From NCBI GenBank assembly GCA_965222525.1, contig OZ244955.1, positions 256,025 to 320,024 on the forward strand: a stretch of 64,000 nucleotides of DNA. Direction: 5' to 3'. This DNA is from Rickettsiales bacterium (lineage in GTDB: Bacteria; Pseudomonadota; Alphaproteobacteria; Rickettsiales; UBA8987). Under the pieces are notes generated by a model. The model was given only the letters and a program-made list of their open reading frames with translations. It did not search any database and had not been told where the DNA came from. The position numbers were made by a program, and so were the translations under genes. Below are positions 1-31,737 of the stretch, piece after piece. Within the stretch, counting starts at the first letter, position 1; each line of letters begins with the position of its first letter.

Positions 1-2708
1 AGCCACGTCCTGGTGAGCAGGCATTGATGTATTTCCATGACAAGGATTACAGCAAGGCATACGAGATTTACCTCAAGCAGTGGCAGGATGGCAACCGTTC
101 GGTTAACGTGGTGCGCAAGCTGACCGACCTTCATTTGCAATATGGCAACATCCATGAGGCAATTGTGGTAATGGAGGAGTATTCCAGGCTGAACCCCGAT
201 TCGCTTGAGGCCAGACAGCAGCTTGGTACATATTACACCTATGCCCAGCAGATAGATAATTACCTGGCCAATCTGGAGGAAACATACAAGCTCTCCCCTA
301 CTCCCAAAACCCTGCGAGAACTTTCAAAGCTGTATAATTATTACGGTGAGCACCGCAAGCAGATAAATGTACTGCAAAATCTGGTGGATAATTATGATGC
401 AACCGAGGAGGATTATATCGGCCTGGCCTATCTCTATGCTTATGTAAAGGAACCAGGCAACGCACTACATACGCTGAACCTGCTCTATGAGAAGTTTGAT
501 AATACAAACAGGAAATTGAAATCCGAATCGCTGGAGTTTTATGTCAGCCTTTTGCTGGATGAGGGACAGTCTGGCAAGGCACTGGAAATTTCCAGCACCT
601 ATGTAACCGATAAAAAGCCGCAGATTGCTTCTCACCTTGCTGCCCTGATGAATCGAAAGGGATATAATGAAGAAGCGCTGGAAGTACTTATCCCCTATAC
701 TGACAAGCTGGAAAAGCACCCTCATATATTATCGGTTCTGTCCAATATCGAAATTGAGCTTGGCTATGAAGACAGGGCATATGAACGGCTACTGGCAATA
801 TATGAAAAGGGCAGGATTCCTGATACGGTTCTGGAGACATTCGTATTCCTGGCGGTTACCAAACAGGATAATGCGATATTAACTGATGTAATCCGTACCA
901 CCGAGCTGGAGCTGCTTTCCGAGGATATATTGTTATCTTTCGCTGAACTTTCCTTATCACTTTCCAGGCCTGAAATTGCAAGACAGGTGCAGAATAAGCT
1001 TGGTGACGGCTTCCTGAATGCGAGTCCACTGGTAAAGGCCGCACTCGAACTGGCGGTTATGGATACGGAAGAACGCAGGAATTTCAGGGGATTTGAGAAT
1101 CTGTCCGATTCGATGTCGGGCAGCAGGATGATCAAGATTATACGGATTTGCAGGCGGGCTGGGCTGGATGAGGTTGCCGGCAGGATTATGGGAGGGTTCA
1201 GCAAGGTTGACCTTAACGATACCGAACTTTTCGACATATCCGAATTATATTTCGAGATGGACAGGATCGACGAAGGCTATGAGCTGTTTAATTCCTTGCG
1301 TGAGGGCGGCAAAATCCGCAGGCAGAAGGCACAGCTTGACCATATATGGGCGATGTTTGCAGTGGCGGCTGGTGGAAAGGATGAACAGGAGGCCGTAGAG
1401 TGGCTGGAGTCTAACAATAGTCTTACCAAGAAATTATTACAGGATATATATTTCACCGCACGGGATTACAAGCGTAATAAAACGGCGCTACTGACAGCCG
1501 AGAAGCTTTTTGCAATGAAGGGTGATGATGAATCACGGACTCATCTTGCCGGCGCATTAATGGTCAATGGCAGACTGGAAGAGGCTTTGGGATATTTCCG
1601 TAAATTGCTGGACAGCAATATAAATATACACTCGGACTATATTGAGACTCTGGCCAAACTGGCAAAAAAGCATAAAAAAGGCAAAAAGGTGGCGGCGTTA
1701 CGTAAAGAGCTGAAAAATTATATAGCAACATACCTGCAACCACATGGTGACATTACTGATAATCAGCAATCCGAAAATAAATCCGCGCATATAACCGGCA
1801 AGGAGAAAAGTGACCTGGCATTTTTCCTGTCCGAGGAAGGGTTCTCTCTGGAAGCCGAGATGATTTTCCTGTCACTTGTGAAACACAGCGAAAATCCGGC
1901 AGATTACCTGGAAGGTCTGGGCTATATCCTGAGCAAGTCGCTGTCGCAGGAATCGCTGGACTGGCTATGGCAAAAGGCACGCAACGGAAAGTCGGAGCAG
2001 AAGGCTGCGTGGCTGAAAGTACTGGTAGAAGCCGGTCAGCACGGGCAGGTAGTAAAATTCATCGAGGACAAAAACATGGCACTGACTTCCGATTCGGTAA
2101 GCGATGTATATTATGCGGCACTGGAGAGGTCTGATTCGGTAGAGGGCAGGAAAAAACTGGCCGCAACCCTTGAGCGTGATATCGAACAGGAAACCGATGT
2201 CAAACGGCTGAAAAAGCTGGCGAAAATAGCCCGTGGCACCGATTCATATAACGCAACCGAAAAGGCCTACCTGAAAATTGTAAAACTGGCTCCCGATACG
2301 GGCAATGATATGAAAAAGGAACTGGCGATTATAAGCTTTTTCAGGGGACAATATTCAAAGTCGGAGAGATATTTTAACGAGTATTTTGCCCGAAAAGACG
2401 GGGATTACAGGGCAAATTTCTATTACGGAGAAATTCTGCACAAAAACAAACGCAAACGTCTGGCAAGGAAGCATTATCACAAGGCCTTGTCTCAAATAAA
2501 TTCAGTTGAAAAAGCTGACATAGCTGCCCGCTCGATAGAGCCGCATATCCTGATACGTCTGGGCAACAAGCAGCAAGCACTGGAGAAATTCAACAAATTA
2601 TTCGACTCAAACCGCAATGACAAATATATACGGGCTGATTTCGCCAGCTTCCTCATCCAGCTCGGCCGCTACAAGGAAGCGGAGGATGTCCTGACGGTAG
2701 ATAAATAG
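1..2708 (+). CDS. TPR-repeat protein, probably 5'-partial
   Basis: ORF track gives 24..2708 (TTG at 24), but the frame is stop-free back to nt 3, so the gene may begin upstream of the window. TPR-like helical repeats run end to end (AYEIYLKQW, ARQQLGTYY, ATEKAYLKIVKL, ARKHYHKALSQ). No signal peptide, TM segment or beta-barrel tail is visible. Confidence 0.6.
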   Translation, partial: PRPGEQALMYFHDKDYSKAYEIYLKQWQDGNRSVNVVRKLTDLHLQYGNIHEAIVVMEEYSRLNPDSLEARQQLGTYYTYAQQIDNYLANLEETYKLSPTPKTLRELSKLYNYYGEHRKQINVLQNLVDNYDATEEDYIGLAYLYAYVKEPGNALHTLNLLYEKFDNTNRKLKSESLEFYVSLLLDEGQSGKALEISSTYVTDKKPQIASHLAALMNRKGYNEEALEVLIPYTDKLEKHPHILSVLSNIEIELGYEDRAYERLLAIYEKGRIPDTVLETFVFLAVTKQDNAILTDVIRTTELELLSEDILLSFAELSLSLSRPEIARQVQNKLGDGFLNASPLVKAALELAVMDTEERRNFRGFENLSDSMSGSRMIKIIRICRRAGLDEVAGRIMGGFSKVDLNDTELFDISELYFEMDRIDEGYELFNSLREGGKIRRQKAQLDHIWAMFAVAAGGKDEQEAVEWLESNNSLTKKLLQDIYFTARDYKRNKTALLTAEKLFAMKGDDESRTHLAGALMVNGRLEEALGYFRKLLDSNINIHSDYIETLAKLAKKHKKGKKVAALRKELKNYIATYLQPHGDITDNQQSENKSAHITGKEKSDLAFFLSEEGFSLEAEMIFLSLVKHSENPADYLEGLGYILSKSLSQESLDWLWQKARNGKSEQKAAWLKVLVEAGQHGQVVKFIEDKNMALTSDSVSDVYYAALERSDSVEGRKKLAATLERDIEQETDVKRLKKLAKIARGTDSYNATEKAYLKIVKLAPDTGNDMKKELAIISFFRGQYSKSERYFNEYFARKDGDYRANFYYGEILHKNKRKRLARKHYHKALSQINSVEKADIAARSIEPHILIRLGNKQQALEKFNKLFDSNRNDKYIRADFASFLIQLGRYKEAEDVLTVDK

Positions 2709-2764
2709 TATATTTTTACCATATAAATGGTATAATTACTATTTACTTTTTATATTTTTCTGAT

Positions 2765-3049
2765 ATGATAGACGTTATAGACTTTGAATATGATTCCAGG
2801 AAGAGTGCATCTAACCTCGTAAAACATGGTATAAGCTTTGAGGATGCCATCAATCTTTGGCATGATCAAGGTCTACTTGAAATTCCTGCAAGAAATACGG
2901 ATGAACCACGTTTTCTTGTCATAGGAATGATAAACAACAGGCACTGGTCTGCTATCACAACTTACAGAGGAAAAAAGATACGCATTATTTCTGTAAGGCG
3001 TTCAAGAAAATCGGAGGTAGAATTATATGAAAGCGAGCGATTTAGATGA
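2765..3049 (+). CDS. brnT: BrnT-family (DUF497) ribonuclease toxin
   Basis: 94 aa. FEYDSRKSASNLVKHGISFEDA ... RIISVRRSRKSE matches the BrnT pattern. It overlaps the downstream antitoxin ORF by 23 nt. Confidence 0.8.
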   Translation: MIDVIDFEYDSRKSASNLVKHGISFEDAINLWHDQGLLEIPARNTDEPRFLVIGMINNRHWSAITTYRGKKIRIISVRRSRKSEVELYESERFR

Positions 3050-3257
3050 GAAATTTGATAATGGCAAGGAAGTTCTGGACGAGTTTGACCTGGACAAGGC
3101 CAGAAGGCCTAATCTCGAACAAAAACGGGTAAATGTTGACTTTCCCTCATGGATGGTTCAATCCCTTGACAGGGAGTCCCGCAGACTCGGTATCACACGC
3201 CAGTCCCTCATAAAAATGTGGGTCGCCGACAGGCTGGAAACCAGTAGCCATACATAA
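3027..3257 (+). CDS. brnA: BrnA-family antitoxin (RHH/CopG-like)
   Basis: 76 aa. The DFPSWMVQSLDRESRRLGITRQSLIKMWVADRL ribbon-helix-helix-like C-terminus is typical of BrnA. It is translationally overlapped with brnT. Confidence 0.7.
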   Translation: MKASDLDEKFDNGKEVLDEFDLDKARRPNLEQKRVNVDFPSWMVQSLDRESRRLGITRQSLIKMWVADRLETSSHT

Positions 3258-3346
3258 GATACTCCCCCTCCTTCATTGCTTTCTCCTAATATAACGTCTA
3301 TAGAATGCTTTAGGTTGTGTCTGTTGTAGATACAAAAGGAGCATAG

Positions 3347-4714
3347 ATGGCAGAGCACAGGGGGAAATTGCGTATAATACGCAGTTCGGCGGTCTTTGAG
3401 ATGCTGGTATTTTTTATACCAGTGGTGACGCTGAATATTGTATTCGGTGACGGCCAGCGCTTTATCAACCTTTCACCCCACCCTTTCTGGATAATCATCC
3501 TTCTTATAACTGTACAATATGGCACTCGTGAGGGGGTTATGTGCGCTATTGTCAGCAGTATAGTTCTACTTGCTGGCAACATCCCGAAGCAGGGGTTTAA
3601 TCAGGACTTCTACGAATATCTGCTGCTTATACTTTACCGTCCGATAATATGGCTCACCACTGCAGTTATCCTTGGCCAACTCAGAGTACGCCAGATTGAA
3701 AACCGCAAAGAGATACAGCACAATCTCGACGAGGCGTTGGAGCGGGAAAAGGTCGTAACCGAGGCATATAGCAAACTTAAAGATGTAAAGGAAACCCTGG
3801 AGGTACGGCTCGCCAGCCAGGTAAAAAGTACATCCGCCGCTTACGGTGCGCTGAAGGCGGTGGATACGCTTGATCAGAAAAGCATCCTGGCAGGTGTCGA
3901 GGATATGATAAAGGTAGTGATGAATCCTGACAAATTCTCAGTATATGCCCTCGACAAAAACGGATTTGAGCCAACCGCTTTAATGGGCTGGAGCAAGAAT
4001 GAACCTTATCAGCGTTATTTCGACAACCAGTCACCGCTTTACCAGGCTATAATCGGCCGCCAGCGGATTCTTTGTGTTATCAATGAGGAAGATGCAATGA
4101 TTCTTGGTGATGAAGGGATTATGGCCGCTCCGCTGGTGGATGAATCAAGCGGCGAGGTTTTCGGAATGCTGAAAATCGAGGAGCTGAATTTTACCGAAAT
4201 TACTCTAAGTAATGTTGAAACTTTCAAGGTGATAGCCGAGATTGTCGGTATGGCATACGCCAATGCAGCAAAATTCCGGGCAGCACAGGAAAACAGCCTG
4301 ATAAATTTTGATACAGAGCTGCCTTCACATAAGCTGTTCCGCCGTCAGTGTGACCTTGTGCTCAAGCTCAAGCAGAAAAGCAATCTGAAAGCCAGCATTA
4401 TTGAGGCAAAATTGCTTAATACCACTGATTTTTCCAGGGAAGAACGTTATAGCCTGGCAATGGAATTTGCTAATGTGGCAAAAACCATTATACCCGACGG
4501 TGATTTTTATAGCGGCCGGCGCAGTGGGATGGAATTACTGATATTACTGCCTAATATATCATCAGCAGAAGCCAAAAAACACGCTTCATCCCTACACCGT
4601 ACAATAAAGGATATAGAATCAGGAGAACTCGCCCGTGCCAAATTCTCTTTTGGCACCAACAAAATAGAAGGAGGAAGCAGTAGTAACAGGCGTAGGAGTG
4701 ATAACAACCAATGA
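3347..4714 (+). CDS. Inner-membrane GAF + degenerate-GGDEF protein (PelD-like architecture, putative c-di-GMP receptor)
   Basis: 455 aa. Four N-terminal hydrophobic helices are followed by a coiled-coil linker (EIQHNLDEALEREKVVTEAYSKLKDVKETLEVRL). The middle is GAF-like (FSVYALDKNG...APLVDESSGEVFGMLKIEE). The C-terminal GGDEF fold has its signature degraded to RRSGMELLILLP. AAGGAG RBS; ATGA overlap with the next gene. Confidence 0.55.
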   Translation: MAEHRGKLRIIRSSAVFEMLVFFIPVVTLNIVFGDGQRFINLSPHPFWIIILLITVQYGTREGVMCAIVSSIVLLAGNIPKQGFNQDFYEYLLLILYRPIIWLTTAVILGQLRVRQIENRKEIQHNLDEALEREKVVTEAYSKLKDVKETLEVRLASQVKSTSAAYGALKAVDTLDQKSILAGVEDMIKVVMNPDKFSVYALDKNGFEPTALMGWSKNEPYQRYFDNQSPLYQAIIGRQRILCVINEEDAMILGDEGIMAAPLVDESSGEVFGMLKIEELNFTEITLSNVETFKVIAEIVGMAYANAAKFRAAQENSLINFDTELPSHKLFRRQCDLVLKLKQKSNLKASIIEAKLLNTTDFSREERYSLAMEFANVAKTIIPDGDFYSGRRSGMELLILLPNISSAEAKKHASSLHRTIKDIESGELARAKFSFGTNKIEGGSSSNRRRSDNNQ

Positions 4715-5823
4715 ATCAAAACGCCACATCATATATCCCCAAAAGCTCAATGCTGTTTGTGACTGCGCTGATGGCGGCAGTTATAGCGATGCTGGAGGGG
4801 GATATTATCTACCGCCTTTATGTAGACCGTATGCGGCTTTCAACCGCTATCATCACCCACATTGCAATATTTATAGTTTTGGGGTGGTGGGTATATTTCA
4901 ACTATATCAAACAGGAAGATTTGCGCATCCCGCTGTTGTTATGGCTTTCGGTAACCGGAAGCGGTGTATTCGGTGCGCTAACCTGCCTGGTCACTATAAC
5001 CCTCTATTACCTATACATAAAAACTGCCAGCTCTTTTGCAGAATGGCTGGCTTCGATATTCCCCGAGCGCAAGGAAGCGCATAGCGATGTTTATGAAAGG
5101 CTGAAATTCGGCTGGGATGATTTCAGTGAAAAAAGGGGCGTAATACCATTCAGGGACATAATAGCGCTTGGGACTACCAACCAGAAAAGGATGGCGCTGG
5201 TCAAGATGTCCCGCCACTTCAAACCTTCCTTCGCCCCTGCATTGCTGGCGGCGGTTAATGATGAAAGCAACCCGATAAGGGTGCAGGCAGCTACGATTAT
5301 TTCCAAACTGGAAAATGAGTTTTTCCATGTAATCATGGAAATGGAAGAAGAGCTTGAGAAAAACCCTGAAGATGGCAACCTGTTGCGCAAGATAGCTGAC
5401 AGATGCGATGCCTACGCCTATTCCGGGCTGCTCGACAGGGAGCAGCAGGACAGGCTACGTATCAAGGCTATCGTACATTATAAGGGATATTTGGAAATCA
5501 CTCCCGATGACGCCGATGCAATATTTGCCCTGGGGCGGCTATATCTGCGCTGTCATAAGCCGCAGGAAGCCTATTCCGTATTCAGAAAAACCATTAAGCT
5601 CAAGGGGGAAGTAACCGCAAATATCGTGCCGTGGTATATGGAAGCACTGTTTAATATAGGCAGGATCACAGAATTGAAGGAGTTCGCATATAACAACCTT
5701 GATAAAATCGACAAGGATAATCGCCACCTGCTCCATATATATGAAATGGCAAAATTATGGGCACTGGGAATAGACGAGGAGCAATTACTGGTTATTCACA
5801 AGAAAAGTACGGGAAGCGGGTAG
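4711..5823 (+). CDS. Membrane protein with HEAT-like and TPR-like cytoplasmic repeats (PelE-like architecture)
   Basis: 370 aa. About four N-terminal TM helices, then a HEAT-like segment (ALLAAVNDESNPIRVQAATIISKL) and TPR-like segments (ALGRLYLRCHKPQEAYSVFRKTIKL). Start codon overlaps the upstream stop (ATGA). Confidence 0.45.
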   Translation: MNQNATSYIPKSSMLFVTALMAAVIAMLEGDIIYRLYVDRMRLSTAIITHIAIFIVLGWWVYFNYIKQEDLRIPLLLWLSVTGSGVFGALTCLVTITLYYLYIKTASSFAEWLASIFPERKEAHSDVYERLKFGWDDFSEKRGVIPFRDIIALGTTNQKRMALVKMSRHFKPSFAPALLAAVNDESNPIRVQAATIISKLENEFFHVIMEMEEELEKNPEDGNLLRKIADRCDAYAYSGLLDREQQDRLRIKAIVHYKGYLEITPDDADAIFALGRLYLRCHKPQEAYSVFRKTIKLKGEVTANIVPWYMEALFNIGRITELKEFAYNNLDKIDKDNRHLLHIYEMAKLWALGIDEEQLLVIHKKSTGSG

Positions 5824-5918: not shown

Positions 5919-6632
5919 ATGTTTTATCAGAGAAGTGGCTTTACCGTACTGGAACTTTCGGTAGTGCTGGTCATCATTGGCTTGCTTATTGCGGGGGTGC
6001 TGGTCGGGCAGGATATGTTACGTCAGTCACGGATACAGTCGGTGGTGGTGGATATAAAAAATTTCCGCTCGGCAATCAGCCTGTTCCAGGAGCAGTACAA
6101 TGACCTGCCTGGTGATATTACTGACGCTTTTGATTACTGGGATACGGACTGCGCAGCTACCGCTGCAGCATGTAATGGTGATGGTGATGGTGCTATAGAG
6201 GAAGATGATGACGCAGCGGATACAAAGGAGGCTCTAAAACTATGGCAACAGCTTGTTCTAGCCAAGCAAATGCCCGGTAACTATACGGGAGTAGATGCCG
6301 GAGTACCTGATGTGCAAATTGAAGTTAATGCGCCTCCTTCAAAGATTCCTGAAGGTGGGTATTTGCCAGTAAATGCCACAGTATATACCGAAACCGACAA
6401 TTTTATTGCCTTTGGCTCGGAGAGGAACGATGCAGTTGAAGGTGAAGTGGTTAATGCCCTGGAGGCATGGCAGATTGACAACAAGATGGATGACGGCAAG
6501 GCGGCGGAAGGTGGCGTGCTGACGCTTGACGGTAGCGGAGAAACCGGCTGTATAGATACATTACCAAACCCTGATATATACGATCAGGATAATGAAGATA
6601 TAAAATGCCGGATGTTTTTTAAGATTTATTAA
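5919..6632 (+). CDS. Prepilin-type N-terminal cleavage/methylation domain protein (type IV pilin / pseudopilin-like), paralog A
   Basis: 237 aa. MFYQRSG/FTVLELSVVLVIIGLLIAGV has Gly at -1, Phe at +1 and Glu at +5. An acidic GDGDG segment and two Cys pairs are present. Confidence 0.75.
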   Translation: MFYQRSGFTVLELSVVLVIIGLLIAGVLVGQDMLRQSRIQSVVVDIKNFRSAISLFQEQYNDLPGDITDAFDYWDTDCAATAAACNGDGDGAIEEDDDAADTKEALKLWQQLVLAKQMPGNYTGVDAGVPDVQIEVNAPPSKIPEGGYLPVNATVYTETDNFIAFGSERNDAVEGEVVNALEAWQIDNKMDDGKAAEGGVLTLDGSGETGCIDTLPNPDIYDQDNEDIKCRMFFKIY

Positions 6633-6633
6633 A

Positions 6634-6729
6634 CCTCCCCCGCTTGCGGGGAAGGCAGGAAATTCGAGGAAACCATATCCTCCGTAGCTTTAGCGTAGGA
6701 GGATTGCTTCCCGAATTTCTGGTGGGGGA
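6634..6729. repeat. Palindromic repeat family C, full copy
   Basis: CCTCCCCCGCTTGCGGGG...GAAATTCGAGGAA...central hairpin...TTCCCGAATTTCTGGTGGGGGA. The same about 96-bp unit recurs at 9457-9552, and a deleted inverted form at 9635-9701. Confidence 0.85.
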
Positions 6730-6740
6730 ATCCACACTTC

Positions 6741-7154
6741 ATGACTGACGAAGAAAATACGGAGCAGACTGACATAGCGGAAAACACCGGGGATAACGCT
6801 GATAAAGCGCAGGGTGGTAATGCGGAAGAGGCAGTAGGATCCGCCGAAGCGCCCTCATCCGACAGTATATCGTCCGGTAGCGATGCTGTTGCTCCAACTC
6901 CTTCCCGTGACGATATGAATGCTTTCGGAGATGTTATGGTTGAGTTGTCGGCAGTTATGGGGCGAATCACCATGTCGGTAGAGCAGTTTTTAAAACTGGG
7001 GCGGGGCGCAATAATTGAGCTGTCGAAACACAAGGATGACGATATTGACATATACGCTAATAATTATCATATAGCGCAGGCGGAGATTGTAGTTGAAAGT
7101 GAGAATGTGGGTATTTCAATCACCAAATTACTCAAACAACCAAAGACGGTATAA
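6741..7154 (+). CDS. fliN: Flagellar motor switch protein FliN (SpoA domain)
   Basis: 137 aa. Acidic disordered N-terminus, then VMVELSAVMGRITMSVEQFLKLGRGAIIELSKHKDDDIDIYANNYHIAQAEIVVESENVGISITKLL. This aligns to the FliN/YscQ C-terminal SpoA domain as I recall E. coli FliN. Confidence 0.75.
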   Translation: MTDEENTEQTDIAENTGDNADKAQGGNAEEAVGSAEAPSSDSISSGSDAVAPTPSRDDMNAFGDVMVELSAVMGRITMSVEQFLKLGRGAIIELSKHKDDDIDIYANNYHIAQAEIVVESENVGISITKLLKQPKTV

Positions 7155-7156
7155 AA

Positions 7157-7870
7157 ATGCGGAAAAATAATAGTGGATTCAGTCTTGTTGAACTATCGAT
7201 TGTAGTAGTAATTATTGGCGTTATCATCGGAGCAATAACCTATATACAATCCATCCGTGAAAAGGCGGAGTCACGGGCAATTATCGCCGAAATGGGTGAA
7301 TATAAAAATGCCATCAGTGCGTTCCGTGATAAATATAAATACCGTCCGGGCGACCATCCCGATGCCGGTCGTTACTTCACTTCCGATGATAATGCTGACA
7401 CTGACGGTGATGGTGACGGGCGCTGGGATACAGCAACCGAGCGTGATGTTATGTGGCCGCAACTATATCAGGCCGGTTTTATCAGTCAGAAATTATCAGG
7501 AACAGGAGCAGCTTCCGAACCCGGGGTAAACCGACCTGAATCGAGGGTAGGTGGCGGCTGGACCATTATAGACACACTTGATATAGACCCGCCCGGTGCT
7601 GTTACTTCTATTAAATATCATTTTGTTCTGCGCTATGGCCAGCCTGACGGTACCGAGGATTTGGGCAATCCATCATTAAATATAGAAAAACACCGGTATA
7701 TAGACGCTAAAATAGACGCACCCGATACCCCGCTTTCCGGTTTTTATGTTGTAGGTGAGCCTGCCTGCGTTAGTGAAAGCGGTGGGGTTTATTCATATCA
7801 ACTGGACGAGGAACTGCTTTGCACCGCCAATATGCCGGAAATCAGCGCCGGCGGTACATATAGCCCCTAA
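7157..7870 (+). CDS. Prepilin-type N-terminal cleavage/methylation domain protein, paralog B
   Basis: 237 aa. MRKNNSG/FSLVELSIVVVIIGVIIGAI. It shares PGD, DGDGDG and W.QL motifs with paralog A. It starts 2 nt after the fliN stop. Confidence 0.75.
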   Translation: MRKNNSGFSLVELSIVVVIIGVIIGAITYIQSIREKAESRAIIAEMGEYKNAISAFRDKYKYRPGDHPDAGRYFTSDDNADTDGDGDGRWDTATERDVMWPQLYQAGFISQKLSGTGAASEPGVNRPESRVGGGWTIIDTLDIDPPGAVTSIKYHFVLRYGQPDGTEDLGNPSLNIEKHRYIDAKIDAPDTPLSGFYVVGEPACVSESGGVYSYQLDEELLCTANMPEISAGGTYSP

Positions 7871-8460
7871 TTGCACACTAATACTCCCTTATCGGTCACC
7901 ACGCAATCCAGTTTTATATCGTGCGGCTCACTGGGTATTCGGTCGATCTGCTGGAAATCATATCCGACACCGACTGCGATAACCTCGCTTATTTCCTGTA
8001 ATTGCCTCAGGGTGCGGTCGTAATACCCGCTGCCGAAGCCGATGCGATGACCGCTCTTATCAAATGCAAGCAGGGGAACTATAACAACATCAGGCTGCAA
8101 CAAAGCCGCTAAATCGGCAGGCTCCATTACACCAAATGAATGTTTATATAATTTATCTCCACGCTTATACCGCCTGAACGACAAATCCTTATCATGTTGC
8201 TGGATTCTCGGCAGGCATAAGCTGTGCCCGTTTTCCTCCAGAATCTCCAGCACCAATGTTATATCAATTTCATCCTTAAGCGGCCAGTATCCGGCAATTA
8301 TATCGCTCTGTTTAAGCGGGATATTAGCGATAAAATTCTGTGTAACCGCCCGGGCCGCCTCCTTGCGCATCCTATCAGAAACCGCCGCACGCAACTGCTT
8401 CATCTCCTTGCGTATTGAATCTTTCAGGGATTGTGTATTATTTTCTACGGGATGTGACAC
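7867..8460 (-). CDS. ygfA: 5-formyltetrahydrofolate cyclo-ligase
   Basis: 197 aa. The C-terminal RIGFGSGYYDRTL motif and overall size fit the MTHFS family. Confidence 0.8.
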   Translation of the reverse strand: MSHPVENNTQSLKDSIRKEMKQLRAAVSDRMRKEAARAVTQNFIANIPLKQSDIIAGYWPLKDEIDITLVLEILEENGHSLCLPRIQQHDKDLSFRRYKRGDKLYKHSFGVMEPADLAALLQPDVVIVPLLAFDKSGHRIGFGSGYYDRTLRQLQEISEVIAVGVGYDFQQIDRIPSEPHDIKLDCVVTDKGVLVCN

Positions 8461-8481
8461 ATAGACACAGAAAAGTCATAA

Positions 8482-8686
8482 GGAGGGATGAGACCGCCCG
8501 ACCGTCGACTCTGTAATTCCTCGCGAGACCTGTATGTACAGGTGGGCGCCATATCACAAAAGCCATAGTCCAGGATTTACAAAATGTTACCTGAGCTAAC
8601 GCTACTTTTGTCAGGGACAGCTCCCTTCGAGAAAACGTTGCCTCCGGGAAAAAGCTATCTAACGTACCAGGCAGCTTCCTCACCCC
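8482..8686 (-). ncRNA. ssrS: Candidate 6S RNA
   Basis: Non-coding stretch immediately upstream of ygfA on the same strand, the conserved ssrS-ygfA arrangement. The 5' GGGGUGAG..GCUGCC pairs with the 3' GGCGGUCUCAUCCC as a closing stem. An internal ACAAAAG/CUUUUGU helix gives a long irregular hairpin. Ends are approximate. Confidence 0.45.
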
Positions 8687-8794
8687 GATAAGAACATAGT
8701 AGCGCAATTTTAGAAGTGCTGCAACGATTTTACTTGCAAAAATCCAATTAAATTTTCTTGCAAAAAATATTTTTTCATATGAGTATGTTGCGTC

Positions 8795-8823
8795 TGTCAT
8801 CCTGAACCTGTTTCGGGATGATA
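8795..8823. repeat. Family A solo hairpin (TIR-only copy)
   Basis: TGTCATCCTGAACCTGTTTCGGGATGATA is the family A terminal sequence folded on itself. Confidence 0.7.
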
Positions 8824-9456: not shown

Positions 9457-9701
9457 CCCCTCCCGCTTGCGGGAGGGGAGAAAATCTGAGGAAACCATAT
9501 CTTCCGTAGCTTTAGCGCAGGAGGATTGTTTCCCGGATTTTCGGGGAGGGAATGATGAAGTGCTGAGTGTTTAGTGCTGAGTGTTTTCAACAGGAGACCT
9601 AGCACTCAACACTCCGCACTTTGCACTTACCGTATTCCCCCACCAGAAATTCGGGAATTAAAATTCCTCGAATTTCTTGCCTCCCCCGCAAGCGGGGGAG
9701 G
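9457..9701. repeat. Composite of nested repeats: family C copy, a second small palindrome, and an inverted deleted family C copy
   Basis: 9457-9552 is family C. 9558-9620 has AGTGCTGAGTGTT...AGCACTCAACACT inverted repeats. 9635-9701 is a reverse-orientation family C lacking the central hairpin. Confidence 0.8.
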
Positions 9702-9745
9702 TGTACAGTAGAATTAACCTGCCCAGCCATTACACACCCCCTCCC

Positions 9746-10819
9746 ATGCTACATGTTCCATTCAGTCTCGTAATCAATCGCCTCGCAGTGACGGCGTGGG
9801 TGTTGCTGTGTATTGCTCTCTCCTTTATGGATTTATCCTTTATCTCTGACTCGATGGGTACTGACTCCGAGCATCTGCTCAATATTACATATGGCGGTGA
9901 AACCGATGGAATAGAAGGAGCGTATGGGGCTACCGCCAAGATTTTCCGCCTAATCCCCGAGGTTTTGCTGAATCCCGTTGTACTGGCGATAAGCTGTTTT
10001 GCGCTGGTATTGTTTATGAAGGATTTCCGCCGTTATAGAACTATCGCCATGGCGATGTATATTACGCTCCCCGCCATGCTGCTATTCATGACCCGTCCGC
10101 AGAAGGAAACCATAGTTATATGCCTGACAATTATAACATTCTTTATATTTCGTTCGCGATTGTCGGAGATGAAGAAAATATTGCTTATGACCGCACTTTA
10201 CGGTGCATACGCCTATTTTATCCGCGAATATTATTTCATTATTATCGTATTCTTTTTCGGCCTGTATTTTATGAAAAAAATGCACGGGATGATTCGCCTG
10301 GCGATTATACCGATTTCACTGGCAGCCCTTGCGTTACTGCCGTCTGATATTTTCCTGGAAACCCAGGGGATGCGTGATTTTGTCAATTACTGGCTGGGAA
10401 CGGATAAACGGGTGATACGTACGGCATTTGTCAACCCCTACCCTGCCGACAATGCCTGGCATTTTATCCTGAACTACGGATATGCCGCCCTGCGGCTGCA
10501 TCTGCCGATATTTTTCATGGCGCCAACATATAAGGAGGTGCTGCATATCGCCTCCGTATGGCTGTTTATCTGGTTTATCTGGATTGGTATGAATGCTCGC
10601 AAGGATATAACAGGGGCAGGAAAAAAGCGGGAAAGCCTGGGTAACAATGCAATATTATCTTCTCAACTTGCACTTGCGCATGTGCTGACCCTGCTTATAT
10701 TTGAACCTGATTTAGGTAGTTATTTAAGACACTTAACATCTATTTTCTTGTATCTTACTCCAAGTATGCTATTATACGACACTGGTAAACATAGGAAGAT
10801 TCGTATCGTTACCAGCTAG
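9746..10819 (+). CDS. Polytopic membrane protein, possibly a polysaccharide polymerase/ligase-like protein
   Basis: The track ORF starts at 9677, inside the repeat (MPPPQAGEV is repeat-encoded). I prefer the Met at 9746 (MLHVPFSLV). About 10 hydrophobic helices. The function call rests only on topology and the TagF-like neighbour. Confidence 0.45.
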   Translation: MLHVPFSLVINRLAVTAWVLLCIALSFMDLSFISDSMGTDSEHLLNITYGGETDGIEGAYGATAKIFRLIPEVLLNPVVLAISCFALVLFMKDFRRYRTIAMAMYITLPAMLLFMTRPQKETIVICLTIITFFIFRSRLSEMKKILLMTALYGAYAYFIREYYFIIIVFFFGLYFMKKMHGMIRLAIIPISLAALALLPSDIFLETQGMRDFVNYWLGTDKRVIRTAFVNPYPADNAWHFILNYGYAALRLHLPIFFMAPTYKEVLHIASVWLFIWFIWIGMNARKDITGAGKKRESLGNNAILSSQLALAHVLTLLIFEPDLGSYLRHLTSIFLYLTPSMLLYDTGKHRKIRIVTS

Positions 10820-10946: not shown

Positions 10947-12191
10947 GTGCATACAGGTATAAATAAAATTGTCTGGCATATGTTTCATGAGTTGTTTTAC
11001 CTGCTCATACTGCCGCTGGACCTGCTTGTCCCCAAACGTAAGGATTACTGGATTTTTGCACTCAAGCACGGCATTCCGTGGGGAGATAATCTGCGTAATA
11101 TTTTCGAGCGTGCGCTGGAAGACCCTGACATTACCCCAATTCTGCTTACCAACGGTTCTGACCCGCGTGATGACATAAAACAGCTCTATGCCGACAGGGG
11201 AATTGATATAATAACCGCAAAACGTATGAGTCTGCGCGGGGTTGGCTATTTCCTGCGCTCGAAATTCTGCTTTATCAGTTTTAGCAACATGGAATTATAC
11301 AGCGTTCTTATCCCGCAATTCCGCCATAATATTATCAATTTGTGGCATGGAATAAGGGTAAAGGCGGTTGGGTTTGCACTGCCGAAAAAGCGCAATTACC
11401 GCAGTGTACGCAAGTTCCTCAACCCGCATTACATATATTGTGACTATTATATTTCCAGTTCCGAGGTGGACAAGCTCGCCATGTGTACTACAATGATGCA
11501 TAACCCTCATAAAGTCTGGGTTACAGGCTCACCGCGCAATGACTATCTGTTTGAGGAAACCAGACTGCCCCCCGATTTGCAGGCAGAAGACGAGCATCTG
11601 AAAAAGGTACTGAATGGGCGGAAACTGGTGCTTTATTCGCCTACTTTCAGGGAATGGCGGGATAATGTTAACCCTATTTCCGATGAGAAGAATGCTGCAG
11701 CACTGGCGAAACTGGCGGAGAAATATGGTGCGGTATTCGGCATCCGCAAGCACTGGAGTGACCATGCACTGCAAATAGTAGACGGGCTGGGGATTATAGA
11801 CTGCGGCAACAAGGAATTTCCCAATTCACAGATTGTAATCCGGAATGCTGATATAATGATTTCCGATTATTCGAGCATATGGGTGGATTACCTGCTGCTC
11901 AACCGCCCTGTAATCGGCTATTGCTATGATTATGAACGTTATCTGCGCGACAGGTCGCTTTTATTCCGATATGATAACATCTTCCCGGGTGAGATAACCT
12001 ATAATTTCGACGAGCTTGTATCTGCCCTGGAATCCGTGCTGAAAGGCGAGGAAAGTGCCGATTCAAAGGCTCTTCGTAAATCCTCCCGTAAATTCTTCTT
12101 CAGCCATTTCGACAACCAGTCCACCACCCGCGTCTACACCAAAATCCAGGAGACTTATTTTGGTAAGAAGTGTCATTCTTCTAACAACTGA
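10947..12191 (+). CDS. CDP-glycerol/ribitol glycerophosphotransferase (TagB/TagF family)
   Basis: 414 aa. LVLYSPTFREW and MISDYSSIWVDYLLLNRPVIGYCYDYERY match the TagF-family catalytic region. Confidence 0.7.
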   Translation: MHTGINKIVWHMFHELFYLLILPLDLLVPKRKDYWIFALKHGIPWGDNLRNIFERALEDPDITPILLTNGSDPRDDIKQLYADRGIDIITAKRMSLRGVGYFLRSKFCFISFSNMELYSVLIPQFRHNIINLWHGIRVKAVGFALPKKRNYRSVRKFLNPHYIYCDYYISSSEVDKLAMCTTMMHNPHKVWVTGSPRNDYLFEETRLPPDLQAEDEHLKKVLNGRKLVLYSPTFREWRDNVNPISDEKNAAALAKLAEKYGAVFGIRKHWSDHALQIVDGLGIIDCGNKEFPNSQIVIRNADIMISDYSSIWVDYLLLNRPVIGYCYDYERYLRDRSLLFRYDNIFPGEITYNFDELVSALESVLKGEESADSKALRKSSRKFFFSHFDNQSTTRVYTKIQETYFGKKCHSSNN

Positions 12192-16583: not shown

Positions 16584-17983
16584 ATGGATTATCTGGCCTG
16601 GTGGATTGTAGCGGTTCTTGTGGGAGGGATAACAGTCATGGCTGCGTATTTCGCCGGTAGCAGGCGTGCAATACGTGCGGCAGCGGCAACGGAAGAGGCT
16701 TTGCGTACGGAGCATGAGGAGCAGAATAACGAATTGCTGAAAGTTAATGCAGAACTTGAGGAATTGCTTGTTAAGTCGAAGAGTGATGCGAATGCGCTTG
16801 GCAGGATGCTGGAGAAAGAATCACAGTATAACAAGGAGATAAAGCAAAAATATAATTCCGAACATGAAAAGCGTATTGAATCGGAAAAAGAGTTGGTAAA
16901 AATCCAGCAGAAGATTATTGAAACCGAAAAAAGGCTGGAGGAATTCAGGGAAAATCATGAGCAGAATATGAAGAATGCCAAACTGGCCTTTACTGAAACA
17001 GGAGGCAAGGTTTTCCGCGAGGAAGCGGAGGGTGTCTACAAAAAAACCATGGAACAGTTCGACAGGATTATTAAATCGGTCTCCGGCCTGAGCAGCCGTG
17101 TTGTCAAGCATGAAGACAAGGTTGAGACTATGTGGAAGGCGCTTTCTACCCCTTCCGGGGCGGGGCAGTTTTCCGAAATCGGGCTTGAGAATACGCTGAA
17201 AAATTACGGGCTTGAGCCGGAACGGGACTTTGTATTACAGCCGGTGGTGGATGATGCGGAAAACCGCAGTAATCTGCGGCCGGATGCTCTGGTATTCCTG
17301 CCCGGCGGGAATATCCTGGTGATTGACAGCAAGGCCTCGATGTTTTTTCTGGAACTGGCAGAAGTTGAGGGTAGTGAACGGGAGCAGGCCATTCTGGACA
17401 AGCTGAAGAAGCGGATGAATGACCATCTGCGTGCGCTTGCCGGCAGGGGGTATAAGGATGCGGTGCAGAAATCCTATAAGAAGAGCGGGCGGGATGATGA
17501 GATAAATCATATATGACCGCCATGTTCCTGCATAGCGAGGCCAATATCGAGCGTTTATATCAGGTTGACCCGGAGTTTCGTCGCAAGGCCGCGGAATATA
17601 ATATTACCCCGACCGGCCCGACCGGTCTGGCTGGTTTCCTGTCACTGGCACGGTTGGAGATTGAAAAGGAAGAGCGCAACAAAAATCAGGAGCAAATCAT
17701 ACATGAAGTCAGTAAATTACTGGGATATATTAAGGCAGCACTTAAACATTCTGAAAATGTGGGCAGGGGTATCAAAAAGGCTGCGGAAAGTTACGAGGAT
17801 TTTGTTCGTTCCATGAATAGCCGGCTGCTACCGTCAGCCCGGCGGATTAACAGGATGGGGGTACAGCTTCCCGGTGACCATAACCTGCCGCAGAACCTTT
17901 CCGGCTATCACGTCACCATAACCGACACCCCCCTCATCGAAGGCGACGCGGAGGAGGTTAAAGTTAAAAAACTACCCGCTTAA
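16584..17983 (+). pseudogene. rmuC: DNA recombination protein RmuC, split into two ORFs (16584..17516 and 17513..17983)
   Basis: The N-terminal ORF has a TM anchor, a coiled coil and RPDALVFLPGGNILVIDSKAS. The C-terminal ORF continues with MFLHSEANIERLYQVDPE...ITPTGPTGLAGFL. The ORFs overlap by ATGA, which implies a 1-nt frame change near 17495-17515. Confidence 0.7.
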
Positions 17984-28563: not shown

Positions 28564-29235
28564 ATGAATATGAGGAAATTATTTCTGGCATTATGTGTAA
28601 CGCCAATACTGTTTTCTGGTACAATACCGGTTTTTGCTTCCGGTAACGAGGTAGCCGTCGGTGAATCCGCGTCTGGCAGTTCTCAGGAAATGGAAGGTGC
28701 ACGTGATTTCGTCAAGGGTTTGAGTGCGCAGACGTTTTCTATCATAGAAAACGCCGAACTGAAGGATGTGCAAAAGAAAGACTCCCTGAAGGATTTATTC
28801 AGGCAGAATGTCGACGTCAACTGGATGGCCAGGTTCGTTATGGGCAAGCATTTCCGCAAGATAAAGTCTGATAAGACACGACAGCATTATGTCAGCCTGT
28901 ATGGTGACTATCTGGTGGAGAGCTATATACCGAAATTCCGTGAGTTTTCCGGTGAAAAGTTTAATATTATCAAAATCCGCAAGGATGACGAGGGGGAGTA
29001 TACCGTGTTTACCGAGCTGGTTCCACCGACACCTGATGCTCCCAGTACCAAGGTGGATTATAAAATCCACAAGAAAAGTGATGCGGAATATAAAATCGTT
29101 GATGTTATTGGCGAGGGGGTAAGCCTTATTACCACCCAGCGCTCGGATTTCGGCGGCATGATTTCCCGCAAAGGAGTCAAATTCTTCATAGAAAGGCTGG
29201 AAGCCAAGGTTAACAAGATGAAGGCGGCAAGTTAG
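28564..29235 (+). CDS. mlaC: MlaC/Ttg2D-family periplasmic phospholipid-binding protein
   Basis: Signal peptide, then VDVNWMARFVMGKHFRKI...YVSLYGDYLVESYIPKF. Confidence 0.7.
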   Translation: MNMRKLFLALCVTPILFSGTIPVFASGNEVAVGESASGSSQEMEGARDFVKGLSAQTFSIIENAELKDVQKKDSLKDLFRQNVDVNWMARFVMGKHFRKIKSDKTRQHYVSLYGDYLVESYIPKFREFSGEKFNIIKIRKDDEGEYTVFTELVPPTPDAPSTKVDYKIHKKSDAEYKIVDVIGEGVSLITTQRSDFGGMISRKGVKFFIERLEAKVNKMKAAS

Positions 29236-29860
29236 GTTTTCCCGAGCGCCGTCTGCCAATCCCGAGGAATTTCCTGGCAGTCCACCATAGAATCCGCATG
29301 TCCAGCCAGAAATTATGGTGGCGGACGTAAAACATGTTATAGCGGAATTTATAGGGCAGGATACGGTTGATATATTCGCTCTCACCGTCCTCACCGGCAG
29401 CGGCCAACATACGTTCCTCCTTCTCATGAAACAGGATTGAAGCAAAGCCGGTCAGGCCGGGTTTTACGCTGGTAATTTTGCGGTATTGCTCTGGATAAAT
29501 CTCGATATATTTCGGCAATTGTGCCCGCGGTCCTACCATGCTGATATCACCGCGCAATACATTATAAAGCTGTGGCAATTCATCCAGCCGGTATTTGCGC
29601 AGGAATGTCCCCACCCTGGTAATCCGGTTTTTCTTGGCATTATGGGTAATACCGTCATCCTTCACCGGGTCATTTTCCACCCGCATGGTACGGAATTTAT
29701 AAAAAGTAAAAGGCTGCAAGTCTTTCTTGATACGGGTTTGTGTATGAATCACCGGCCCTGGAGAGCTGAACTTCACCATAATTGCAATCATCAGCATAAG
29801 TGGTGATAGCGCCACCAGCAGCAAGGATGATGATACTATGTCGAATAGTCGTTTTATCAT
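29210..29860 (-). CDS. Small monotopic phosphoglycosyl transferase (bacterial sugar transferase family, PglC/WbaP C-terminal type)
   Basis: 216 aa. KRLFDIVSSSLLLVALSPLMLMIAIMVK...FYKFRTM...DELPQLYNVLRGDISMVGPRA. Confidence 0.85.
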   Translation of the reverse strand: MIKRLFDIVSSSLLLVALSPLMLMIAIMVKFSSPGPVIHTQTRIKKDLQPFTFYKFRTMRVENDPVKDDGITHNAKKNRITRVGTFLRKYRLDELPQLYNVLRGDISMVGPRAQLPKYIEIYPEQYRKITSVKPGLTGFASILFHEKEERMLAAAGEDGESEYINRILPYKFRYNMFYVRHHNFWLDMRILWWTARKFLGIGRRRSGKPNLPPSSC

Positions 29861-29880
29861 GGTGGCTTGTGGTAATGCAT

Positions 29881-30037
29881 TGTCACCCCGGATGGCATGC
29901 TTTCTCCAAATCTATGATTTGGCAAGAAAGCACCATTCTCGGGGTTACAGGTAAGTAACGTGAATGTGTAATAACCCCGAGAACGCTATTTTCTGACTAC
30001 ATCAAAGATGTAGAGAAAATATGCGTCCGGGGTGACA
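29881..30037. repeat. MITE-like element, family B (nested palindromes)
   Basis: TGTCACCCCGGA.GCAT...TTCTC outer TIRs, plus inner inverted repeats (CTCGGGGTTA.../...TAACCCCGAG); 157 bp. Confidence 0.85.
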
Positions 30038-30051
30038 AATTAACGTACTGG

Positions 30052-30837
30052 TTAAAAATAATAAACGACCCGCCTGGCGAGTTTCTTTTGTATAATAACA
30101 GCTATAACTACCATAATTGCAGCTATTGAAAATGCCATCGTCATCTGCGTAACAGAGGGAAACGTACCATAATATACAAATTCCTGCATCGGTTTTATCA
30201 GAATATAAAACGGGTTATACTCAAAATACACCATATACTCCGCAGGTATTGCCGAGGCCGGATATACAATGGGAATTGTCCAGAATAAAGCGTTAAAAGC
30301 TACTGTCAGCAAATGGTGCAGATCATTGGCATATGGGGCAATATACGCTACTGCTATAGCAGCAAAAATCGTGAACAATATGATGGGAAGCACTACCAGC
30401 GGCCATAGCAGGAATACTGTCAGGCTGAAAGTGCCGGTAATCAGGCCGACTGCCAGATACATCATTGAAAATGATACGACCAGCGTATAAAGCGCAACAG
30501 CCACATCGGAAATTATGAAGATAGTCTTCGGCAGCATACATCCGCCCTTTATCAGCCCGCCATGTGACACCAGCGAGTTTGCCCCCAGCGTCACCCCTGA
30601 TACTATAAAAATCCAGGGCAGCAACCCGCTTACCAGCAGCAACACGTAATTATCCATGTCAAAGCGCAATATTGTCGAGAATACGATTGACAGTACGATT
30701 ACCTGCACAGTCGGCTGGATGAGAGTCCACAACACACCCAGAAACGACCCGCGATACTGCTTCTTCAGAGAAAGCTCGGACAGGAACAATAGAGATTTGA
30801 AATAGTTCCTGTCGAGTCTTGAAATTATATTCAACAT
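30052..30837 (-). CDS. ABC-2 type polysaccharide/polyol-phosphate export permease (Wzm/TagG/KpsM-like)
   Basis: 261 aa, 6 TM. N-terminal LKKQYRGSFLGVLWTLIQP is typical of ABC-2 permeases. It is adjacent to the cognate ATPase. Confidence 0.75.
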   Translation of the reverse strand: MLNIISRLDRNYFKSLLFLSELSLKKQYRGSFLGVLWTLIQPTVQVIVLSIVFSTILRFDMDNYVLLLVSGLLPWIFIVSGVTLGANSLVSHGGLIKGGCMLPKTIFIISDVAVALYTLVVSFSMMYLAVGLITGTFSLTVFLLWPLVVLPIILFTIFAAIAVAYIAPYANDLHHLLTVAFNALFWTIPIVYPASAIPAEYMVYFEYNPFYILIKPMQEFVYYGTFPSVTQMTMAFSIAAIMVVIAVIIQKKLARRVVYYF

Positions 30838-30838
30838 A

Positions 30839-31582: not shown

Positions 31583-31723
31583 CCTGAACTTGTTTCAGGA
31601 TCTATCAAGCAGAGTCCTGATAATAGTAATTGCAACTAATCTTATCAAAATTTCAAACTGACCATCAATTAATATGGATTCCGTTGTTGAATGGATGGAT
31701 CCTTCACCTCGTTCAGGATGACA
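31577..31723. repeat. MITE-like element, family A
   Basis: TGTCATCCTGAACTTGTTTCAGGATCTAT ... CCTTCACCTCGTTCAGGATGACA; 147 bp. Its first 6 nt are the reverse complement of the ATG-ACA start of the ABC ATPase gene. Confidence 0.85.
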
Positions 31724-31737
31724 ACCAACTCCGCCTG

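What the first reader, a model, noticed from the sequence alone, without database searches (positions are those of the whole stretch)
1..5823. PelD-like / PelE-like pair plus a large TPR protein, without PelF/PelG or any glycosyltransferase
The product of 3347..4714 has the domain order 4 TM, coiled coil, GAF, then degenerate GGDEF (RRSGMELL in place of GGDEF). This is the architecture of the c-di-GMP receptor PelD, which as I recall is also 455 aa in P. aeruginosa.

The translationally coupled next gene (ATGA overlap) encodes a TM + HEAT/TPR protein, comparable to PelE. Upstream is a TPR protein of at least 894 aa that lacks the beta-barrel of PelB.

The Pel synthase components PelF and PelG, and PelA and PelC, are not in the window. 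The genes that follow are pilin-like genes and fliN. So this may be a c-di-GMP-sensing membrane module re-used for something other than Pel polysaccharide, for example control of a pilus or pseudopilus or of another exopolymer.

A BrnTA toxin-antitoxin pair is wedged between the TPR gene and the PelD-like gene.
Basis: partly seen in the sequence, partly recalled or inferred. Interest (0 to 1): 0.58.

Follow-up and report, generated by a model that had tools for sequence, protein, structure and literature searches.

The report
Split Pel polysaccharide operon (pelB-pelD-pelE)
This is the front half of a Pel biofilm-polysaccharide gene cluster (TPR protein, PelD, PelE) cut off from its synthase genes pelF/pelG, which lie elsewhere on the same chromosome, so it is an ordinary though rearranged Pel locus and not a new signalling module.

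Summary
Window 1-5823 encodes:
- a PelB-like all-TPR protein that ends without a barrel;
- a BrnT/BrnA toxin-antitoxin pair;
- a 455-aa protein with N-terminal membrane helices, a long helix, a GAF domain and a degenerate GGDEF-like domain (SGMEL in place of GGDEF);
- an ATGA-coupled membrane + TPR protein.

No pelF, pelG or pelA, not even a remnant, is present in the 64 kb.

The 455-aa protein belongs to a widespread, divergent PelD family. In 55 of 57 related loci it is followed by pelE, pelF and pelG. The two nearest relatives have TPR-PelD-PelE-PelF-PelG.

The source chromosome (one 2,114,217-bp contig) encodes three PelF and three PelG elsewhere. One PelF is the best non-self hit of the nearest relative's PelF. 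One PelG groups with that relative's PelG just as the window PelD groups with its PelD.

So this is most likely a split pel operon with a toxin-antitoxin insertion, not a module re-used for pili.

The canonical c-di-GMP I-site arginine is missing (PDGD instead of RxxD), as in about half of this family, so c-di-GMP sensing is doubtful.

The sequence upstream of the window could not be retrieved. Interest is low to moderate.

The parts
1..2708 (+). PelB-like periplasmic TPR scaffold gene. Its 5' end lies about 28 codons upstream of the window. All TPR, with no C-terminal porin region.
   Evidence: TPR Pfam matches span residues 14-897. It is 34% and 33% identical to the two TPR ORFs that precede PelD in L001, and matches residues 15-1024 of the 1432-aa TPR protein of a chlamydial pel operon.
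2765..3049 (+). brnT toxin gene, part of a cassette inserted between pelB and pelD.
   Evidence: Pfam BrnT_toxin, E = 4.5e-25. In relatives the TPR gene abuts or overlaps pelD: a 16-nt overlap in L001, a 23-nt overlap in L067 and an 8-nt gap in L002. Here the gap is 638 nt.
3027..3257 (+). brnA antitoxin gene, overlapping brnT by 23 nt.
   Evidence: NCBIfam BrnA_antitoxin_add, E = 9e-36, above its cut-off. Pfam CopG_antitoxin, E = 4e-4.
2768..3301 (.). 12-nt perfect inverted repeat (2768-2779 and 3290-3301) bracketing the brnTA cassette. It may be a cassette boundary or an operator; its function is untested.
   Evidence: the repeat finder.
3347..4714 (+). Divergent pelD: N-terminal membrane helices, a long juxtamembrane helix, a GAF domain, and a degenerate GGDEF-like domain with SGMEL in place of GGDEF and PDGD in place of the RxxD I-site.
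   Evidence: It retains all 15 invariant residues of the 36-sequence family alignment.
4711..5823 (+). pelE: N-terminal membrane segments plus a cytoplasmic TPR-like helical domain, translationally coupled to pelD by an ATGA overlap.
   Evidence: 50% identical (E = 2e-110) to the gene between PelD and PelF in L001, and 26% identical (E = 8e-40) to the one in the chlamydial operon L002. TPR matches. Hydropathy. Overlap.

Best explanation
The locus is the pelB(TPR)-pelD-pelE portion of a Pel-type synthase-dependent exopolysaccharide system. Its glycosyltransferase (pelF) and membrane partner (pelG) are encoded elsewhere on the same chromosome.

Inferred mechanism, by analogy with P. aeruginosa, where PelD, PelE, PelF and PelG form one inner-membrane complex:
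- PelD and PelE made from this locus assemble in the inner membrane with a PelF/PelG pair made from another locus. The most likely pair is P0235/P0201.
- That complex polymerises and translocates a Pel-like polymer.
- The TPR protein acts as a periplasmic scaffold.

The ancestral contiguous operon (TPR-D-E-F-G, as in the two nearest relatives) was broken by rearrangement after pelE and interrupted by insertion of a brnTA cassette before pelD.

This PelD keeps the GAF and GGDEF-like folds but lacks the I-site arginine. Activation is therefore probably not through canonical c-di-GMP binding. It may be constitutive or respond to another ligand.

Shown here: homology, family synteny, absence of F/G in the window, and presence of F/G paralogues in the genome. 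Inferred: assembly in trans, the nature of the polymer, and the mode of regulation.
For: - Family membership. 109 homologues at 29-51% identity. In 57 related loci with at least 4.5 kb after PelD, 55 have E, F and G downstream, and in 53 PelF starts within 400 nt of PelE.
- Nearest relatives. P0002 (51% identity) and P0010 both sit in TPR-TPR-PelD-PelE-PelF(DUF3492+GT4)-PelG.
- The window matches their TPR, PelD and PelE, but not PelF, PelG or PelA.
- P0235 is the top non-self hit (60%) of the L001 PelF.
- Congruent trees. In neighbour-joining trees the window PelD pairs with the c36525 PelD, and P0201 pairs with the c36525 PelG. The c9936 sequence is next in both trees.
- The window PelD keeps all family-invariant residues, and both ORFs are intact and ATGA-coupled. 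This argues against decay.
- Literature. PelDEFG form one inner-membrane complex (PMC12345266). Duplication, locus loss or gain and rearrangement of pel operons are documented (PMC7112194).
Against: - The positions of the PelF and PelG genes on the contig are unknown. The source genome is not in the gene-position index, not in the genome collection scanned and not in the metagenome collection.
- Trans-assembly of a Pel complex from separate loci has not been shown.
- The trees are simple neighbour-joining trees without support values. P0201 is also 63% identical to its in-genome paralogue P0127.
- pelE and the first pilin-like gene are on the same strand, 95 nt apart, with no predicted terminator between them. 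Co-transcription with non-pel genes is therefore possible.
Confidence: 0.62

Rival explanations
1. Ordinary but re-ordered locus: pelF-pelG (and perhaps pelA) lie immediately upstream of the window, so the cluster is contiguous and only looks truncated because the window starts inside pelB.
For: The window begins about 28 codons into the TPR gene, and nothing upstream could be fetched. Gene order does vary in this family: pelA and pelB sit between pelE and pelF in L028 and L031.
Against: In none of the 57 informative loci are pelF or pelG upstream of pelB or pelD. In the nearest relative the gene upstream of the TPR genes is ftsY.
Confidence: 0.15
2. Left-over copy: after duplication of the pel operon this copy lost pelF-pelG. 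The remaining pelB-D-E genes are redundant with the paralogous locus (P0014) and are non-functional or on the way to decay.
For: The genome has at least two PelD paralogues. A toxin-antitoxin cassette has been inserted into the operon. Flanking synteny with the nearest relative is completely lost. Locus loss after pel duplication is documented (PMC7112194).
Against: All three ORFs are full length. PelD keeps every family-invariant residue. The ATGA coupling is intact. The genome keeps a PelF and a PelG that are co-orthologous to those of the nearest relative's operon, and has more F/G pairs (three) than detected PelD (two). That fits a relocated pelF-pelG better than a deleted one.
Confidence: 0.13
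3. One reading: the PelD/PelE membrane module has been co-opted to control a pilus, a pseudopilus or another polymer encoded by the downstream genes.
For: Pilin-like, FliN-like and pilin-like genes follow on the same strand after a 95-nt gap with no predicted terminator. The I-site is lost, so the input signal may have changed.
Against: No pilin-like or FliN-like homologue is found next to pel genes in any of the related loci fetched. No pilus ATPase, platform protein or secretin is in the window. I-site loss is common in this family inside complete D-E-F-G operons, so it is not linked to loss of F/G. The window also has motA, so the FliN-domain gene is plausibly just flagellar.
Confidence: 0.06

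Closest known systems
PelD of Pseudomonas aeruginosa (c-di-GMP receptor of the PelDEFG complex; PDB 4DN0, 4ETZ)
   Same: Same length (the PDB constructs end at residue 455). Same order of parts: membrane helices, long helix, GAF, degenerate GGDEF. The fold match covers GAF plus GGDEF. Same operon position in relatives, between pelB and pelE-F-G.
   Different: No detectable sequence match. phmmer finds nothing. Family profiles reach the PelD chains only at E = 0.4-1, in the GAF region. Pfam PelD_GGDEF does not appear even at E <= 10. The RxxD arginine is replaced by proline. pelF and pelG are not adjacent.
Streptococcal PelD (class IV; TM + GAF, no GGDEF domain), a c-di-GMP-independent PelD
   Same: It is a precedent for a PelD that cannot bind c-di-GMP through an I-site yet works in a pel operon (PMC7112168, PMC12345266).
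   Different: The window protein keeps the whole GGDEF-like domain and has only lost the key arginine. It has no SDR domain. It comes from a Gram-negative bacterium.
PelE of P. aeruginosa (inner-membrane TPR-like interaction module)
   Same: N-terminal membrane segments plus a C-terminal TPR-like region. It lies directly after pelD and is translationally coupled to it. It is homologous to the gene at the PelE position in more than 55 pel operons.
   Different: Not compared directly with P. aeruginosa PelE (no sequence was available here). The family is very divergent: only 2 columns are at least 80% conserved.
PelB of P. aeruginosa (periplasmic TPR scaffold plus outer-membrane porin)
   Same: A long TPR array encoded just upstream of pelD.
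   Different: It ends in TPR repeats and lacks a C-terminal region. It corresponds to residues 15-1024 of a 1432-aa homologue. The same truncation is seen in the two nearest relatives, where the gene is additionally split in two. 'pelB fission' is described in PMC7112194.
BrnT/BrnA type II toxin-antitoxin system
   Same: The toxin and antitoxin models match, with toxin-first order and overlapping genes.
   Different: Nothing unusual except where it is inserted, inside a pel operon.

Membership tests
PelD | N-terminal multi-pass membrane region (four TM helices in PaPelD) | tested here: met
   AlphaFold2 helices 13-33, 46-58, 60-75 and 88-~110. Hydropathy segments 9-35, 62-80 and 91-110.
PelD | Cytoplasmic GAF domain after a long juxtamembrane helix | tested here: met
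   Pfam GAF_3, E = 1.4e-7, above its cut-off. Continuous helix 88-172 followed by an alpha/beta domain at 177-316.
PelD | C-terminal degenerate GGDEF-fold domain (no GG[DE]EF) | tested here: met
   Foldseek matches to PelD and diguanylate cyclase structures across both domains. Family profiles align to GGDEF domains, and I read SGMEL as lying at the GGDEF position.
PelD | I-site RxxD plus a second arginine that bind c-di-GMP (Pa R367/D370/R402; Bc R363/D366/R395) | tested here: not met
   The window has P383-D-G-D386. About half of the family keeps an RxxD that aligns with the I-site of real cyclases. S415 at the position of the second basic residue is my own alignment-based inference. The residue requirements come from PMC7112168.
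PelD | Match to the curated model Pfam PelD_GGDEF | tested here: not met
   No match at E <= 10. No precomputed PelD Pfam domain on any of the 109 homologues.
PelD | Encoded in a pel operon next to pelE, pelF and pelG | tested here: inconclusive
   pelE is adjacent. pelF and pelG are absent from the window but present three times each on the same contig. Homologues sit in D-E-F-G operons in 55 of 57 loci.
PelD | Binds c-di-GMP and is required for Pel synthesis | not testable with these tools
   Needs binding assays and genetics.
PelE | Small inner-membrane protein with a TPR-like cytoplasmic domain, encoded directly after pelD | tested here: met
   The single-sequence AlphaFold2 model is poor overall (pLDDT 54), all-helical, and confident only for about residues 200-340.
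PelB | Periplasmic TPR array | tested here: met
PelB | C-terminal outer-membrane porin domain | tested here: not met
   The protein ends within a TPR match (residues 853-897 of 901). The C-terminal ~400 residues of the 1432-aa homologue have no counterpart in the window. Whether that region is a barrel was not tested.
BrnTA | BrnT RNase-toxin fold family plus BrnA antitoxin, adjacent genes | tested here: met
   Pfam BrnT_toxin at 88 bits (cut-off 34.5). NCBIfam BrnA at 122 bits (cut-off 60).

The most novel reading that the evidence does not exclude
A PelD/PelE pair that has lost the c-di-GMP I-site and is physically separated from any synthase acts as a trans-acting or shared regulatory scaffold. 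It could serve more than one of the three PelF/PelG pairs in the genome (three F/G pairs but only two detected PelD). Alternatively it is co-expressed with the downstream pilin-like and FliN-like genes, so that surface-polymer output is coupled to a signal other than c-di-GMP.
Probability: 0.1. Interest if true: 0.55.

Novelty: new member of a known kind. Interest (0 to 1): 0.25.

Why it matters
- It corrects an attractive but unsupported reading, an 'orphan c-di-GMP module re-used for pili'. The locus is a rearranged Pel locus.
- It shows that a large, mostly unannotated PelD/PelE family exists in complete pel operons of chlamydial, alphaproteobacterial, acidobacterial and other uncultivated lineages. 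In the annotations seen, NCBI records name PelF and PelG, while the named PelD records are called hypothetical or GAF-domain proteins.
- About half of these PelD proteins, including this one, keep the GGDEF-like fold but lack the I-site arginine. This extends the question, already raised for streptococci, of how Pel synthesis is switched on without c-di-GMP.
- A genome with three pelFG pairs and a detached pelDE pair could be used to test whether Pel complexes assemble from genes in trans.

Tried and rejected
- **Source genome around the window.**
  - Exact-protein look-ups for P0001, P0014, the PelE protein and P0201 all returned 'not on record'.
  - The genome-contig scan did not contain the source genome.
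  - An exact 43-nt DNA scan and a protein-seeded scan of metagenome contigs found nothing.
  - Cluster look-ups gave no accession numbers or names.
- **Direct sequence link to P. aeruginosa PelD.** phmmer gave 0 hits. Family profiles gave only E = 0.4-1, in the GAF part. Homology to PaPelD therefore rests on fold and operon context.
- **'Ordinary active diguanylate cyclase' or 'sensor kinase'.** Rejected. There is no GG[DE]EF, the Pfam GGDEF match is below threshold, and there are no kinase domains.
- **Defence-system reading.** Rejected. PADLOC gave no hits for BrnT, BrnA, PelD, PelE or ORF 9677-10819.
- **pelF/pelG pseudogene remnants after pelE.** None found.
- **Flank synteny with the nearest relative.** None of nine flanking proteins of L001 is encoded in the window.
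- **PelE structure.** The single-sequence model was too poor (pLDDT 54) for a fold search.
- **I-site loss versus lineage.** I looked for a taxonomic correlation, for example with Chlamydiae. Chlamydial loci are mixed, so there is no clean correlation.
Full report
**1. What is in the sequence**

- **TPR protein (3..2708, +).** It is cut by the window edge. It matches TPR families from residue 14 to 897 of 901, and the last match is at 853-897, so it ends in repeats with no room for a barrel.
- **brnT (2765..3049) and brnA (3027..3257).** They pass curated thresholds: Pfam BrnT_toxin at 88 bits and NCBIfam BrnA at 122 bits.
- **PelD-like protein (3347..4714, 455 aa).**
  - It has a GAF_3 match at residues 177-303 and only a faint GGDEF match (E = 0.04).
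  - An AlphaFold2 model built on 36 homologues (pLDDT 86.8) shows N-terminal helices at 13-33, 46-58 and 60-75. These are followed by one continuous helix at 88-172, a GAF domain and a GGDEF-like alpha/beta domain.
  - Foldseek against the PDB returns GAF-GGDEF cyclases and the four P. aeruginosa PelD entries across about 300 columns.
- **PelE-like protein (4711..5823).** The PelD stop and the next start overlap as ATGA. The 370-aa product has three hydrophobic segments in its first 103 residues and TPR matches around 250-300.
- **No pelA, pelF or pelG in the 64 kb.** tblastn with these proteins from related loci found nothing. Profile HMMs of 71 PelF and 120 PelG sequences, run without filters on the six-frame translation, gave a best E of about 1.

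**2. Is it really PelD/PelE?**

Sequence alone does not link the 455-aa protein to P. aeruginosa PelD.

- phmmer against PDB sequences finds nothing.
- Family profiles reach the PelD chains only at E = 0.4-1.
- Pfam PelD_GGDEF does not match.

The link comes from fold and, above all, from context.

- The protein has 109 homologues at 29-51% identity.
- For two of them I fetched the contigs. The closest (P0002, 51%) lies in TPR-TPR-PelD-PelE-PelF(DUF3492+GT4)-PelG. A Parachlamydiales one lies in GH114(PelA)-771aa-TPR(1432 aa)-PelD-PelE-PelF-PelG.
- A scan of one genome per species gave 63 more loci.
- Of 57 loci with at least 4.5 kb after PelD, 55 have PelE, PelF and PelG downstream. In 53 of them PelF starts within 400 nt of PelE. 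None lacks both F and G.
- The next-closest relative (P0010) again has TPR-TPR-D-E-F-G.

So this is the PelD/PelE of a widespread, divergent type of pel operon. The window is the exception within that family.

**3. Where are pelF and pelG?**

The protein database reports the length of the longest contig carrying each protein. P0001, which is identical to the window protein, sits on a single contig of 2,114,217 bp from NCBI/ENA.

- a paralogous PelD, P0014 (40% identity);
- three PelG: P0125, P0127 and P0201;
- three PelF: P0235, P0239 and P0274.

P0235 is the best non-self hit (60%) of the PelF in the nearest relative's operon.

In neighbour-joining trees the window PelD pairs with that relative's PelD, and P0201 pairs with its PelG. 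The same third taxon (c9936) branches next in both trees.

The simplest reading is that the partners of this PelD/PelE still exist but have been moved. None of them lies in the 58 kb downstream.

I could not see upstream of the window. In the 57 informative relatives F and G are never upstream of B or D, so I give that possibility about 15%.

**4. Signs of rearrangement**

- In relatives the TPR gene abuts or overlaps pelD: 16-nt and 23-nt overlaps, and one 8-nt gap. Here 638 nt separate them, and this gap holds brnTA.
- The brnTA cassette is bracketed by a perfect 12-nt inverted repeat.
- None of nine genes flanking the nearest relative's operon is present in the window.
- After pelE there is a 95-nt spacer with no predicted terminator. 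A prepilin-type gene follows, then a FliN-domain gene, then a second prepilin-type gene that starts 2 nt after the FliN stop. The block ends against a convergent 5-formyltetrahydrofolate cyclo-ligase gene and a 6S RNA.
- None of the related loci fetched has pilin-like or FliN-like homologues near pel genes.
- The window has no pilus ATPase, platform or secretin.
- It does have motA, so the FliN-domain gene is probably flagellar.

**5. The c-di-GMP question**

- A profile of the family members that carry RxxD aligns its invariant R...D with the I-site RxxD of solved diguanylate cyclases (6d9m, 4zve, 3ign, 6zxm), just upstream of the GGDEF motif.
- About half of the family has this motif. The other half, including the window protein (P383-D-G-D386), its paralogue, its nearest relatives and many chlamydial sequences, has Pro, His, Ser or Gly at the arginine position. 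Some members lack the whole domain.
- All three types sit in complete D-E-F-G operons. I-site loss is therefore a family feature and is not connected with the missing F/G here.
[quoted passage not shown] Streptococcal PelD lacks the domain altogether (PMC7112168; PMC12345266).
- By my reading of the alignment, the second basic position is S415 in the window protein. This is an inference.
- Canonical c-di-GMP sensing is therefore unlikely for this protein. What replaces it is unknown.

**6. Most likely mechanism and rivals**

- **Best explanation (0.62).** This is a split pel operon. PelD and PelE from this locus join a PelF/PelG pair encoded elsewhere, most likely P0235/P0201, to form the inner-membrane Pel synthase complex. 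The TPR protein acts as a periplasmic scaffold. Homology, family synteny and the genomic presence of F/G are shown here. Assembly in trans, the polymer made and the regulation are inferred from the P. aeruginosa PelDEFG complex.
- **Rivals.**
  - F/G lie directly upstream, making a contiguous but re-ordered locus (0.15).
  - This is a redundant left-over copy after duplication (0.13). Intact ORFs, retained invariant residues and retained co-orthologous F/G argue against it.
  - The module has been co-opted for a pilus or pseudopilus (0.06). The only support is adjacency.

**7. Comparison with what is known, and novelty**

- Pel operon duplication, locus gain and loss, pelB fission and rearrangement have been catalogued (PMC7112194). 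PelD variants that cannot bind c-di-GMP are known from streptococci.
- The locus is thus a new member of a known kind.
- Two modest points of interest remain.
  - There is a large PelD/PelE family that curated models miss, present for example in many chlamydial MAGs. No paper in the library mentions PelF, PelG and chlamydia together.
  - PelD forms that keep the GGDEF-like fold but have lost the I-site arginine are frequent.

**Overall interest: 0.25.**

Noticed in passing
window 2768-2779 and 3290-3301: A perfect 12-nt inverted repeat (ATAGACGTTATA / TATAACGTCTAT) brackets the brnTA cassette. The left arm lies in the first codons of brnT. It may be a cassette boundary or an operator.
   Followed up: no
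window 5919-7870: Two paralogous prepilin-type genes (each 237 aa, 26% identical, both with a GDGDG motif) flank a FliN-domain gene. The FliN stop and the second pilin start are 2 nt apart. No pilus assembly genes are nearby.
   Followed up: partly
window 8487-8680 (-): A 6S RNA (Rfam, 58.7 bits) lies just upstream of the 5-formyltetrahydrofolate cyclo-ligase gene at 7867-8460 (-). The 120-aa ORF at 8438-8800 (-) overlaps it almost entirely and is probably not a gene.
   Followed up: yes
window 16584-17983 (+): RmuC is split into two overlapping ORFs (16584-17516 and 17513-17983) that match consecutive parts of the Pfam model. This is a frameshift or a genuine split.
   Followed up: no
window 55109-58000: A low-GC stretch (33% against about 46-47% elsewhere) lies over an 874-aa right-handed beta-helix protein (chondroitinase-B-like / DUF1565 matches). 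It may be horizontally acquired.
   Followed up: no
window 10947-12191 (+) and 29210-33030 (-): Other surface-polymer genes are present in the window. They are a TagF-like CDP-glycerol glycerophosphotransferase, and a cluster of a sugar transferase, an ABC-2 transporter pair and a DegT aminotransferase. None of the window proteins scanned against Pfam matched a GT4-type family.
   Followed up: no
loci L004-L066 (genome contigs): The PelD-like family occurs in three forms: with RxxD, without the arginine, and without the GGDEF-like domain (for example the Tagaea loci L036, L037, L040). All lie in pelD-E-F-G operons. Many chlamydial MAGs carry complete pel operons, which the searched literature does not mention.
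   Followed up: partly
L054 1786-3839; L014: In the second pel locus of the nearest relative's genome (L054) PelD is broken into two or three ORFs, from a frameshift or an assembly error. L014 has PelF but no detectable PelG within 10 kb.
   Followed up: no
protein P0201 (source genome, outside the window): The PelG that is co-orthologous to the nearest relative's PelG is 444 aa. It starts about 17 residues later than its paralogues (MGLVRAY... versus MAGIGF...IGIVQAY...). This is either a mis-called start or a 5' truncation at a rearrangement point.
   Followed up: no
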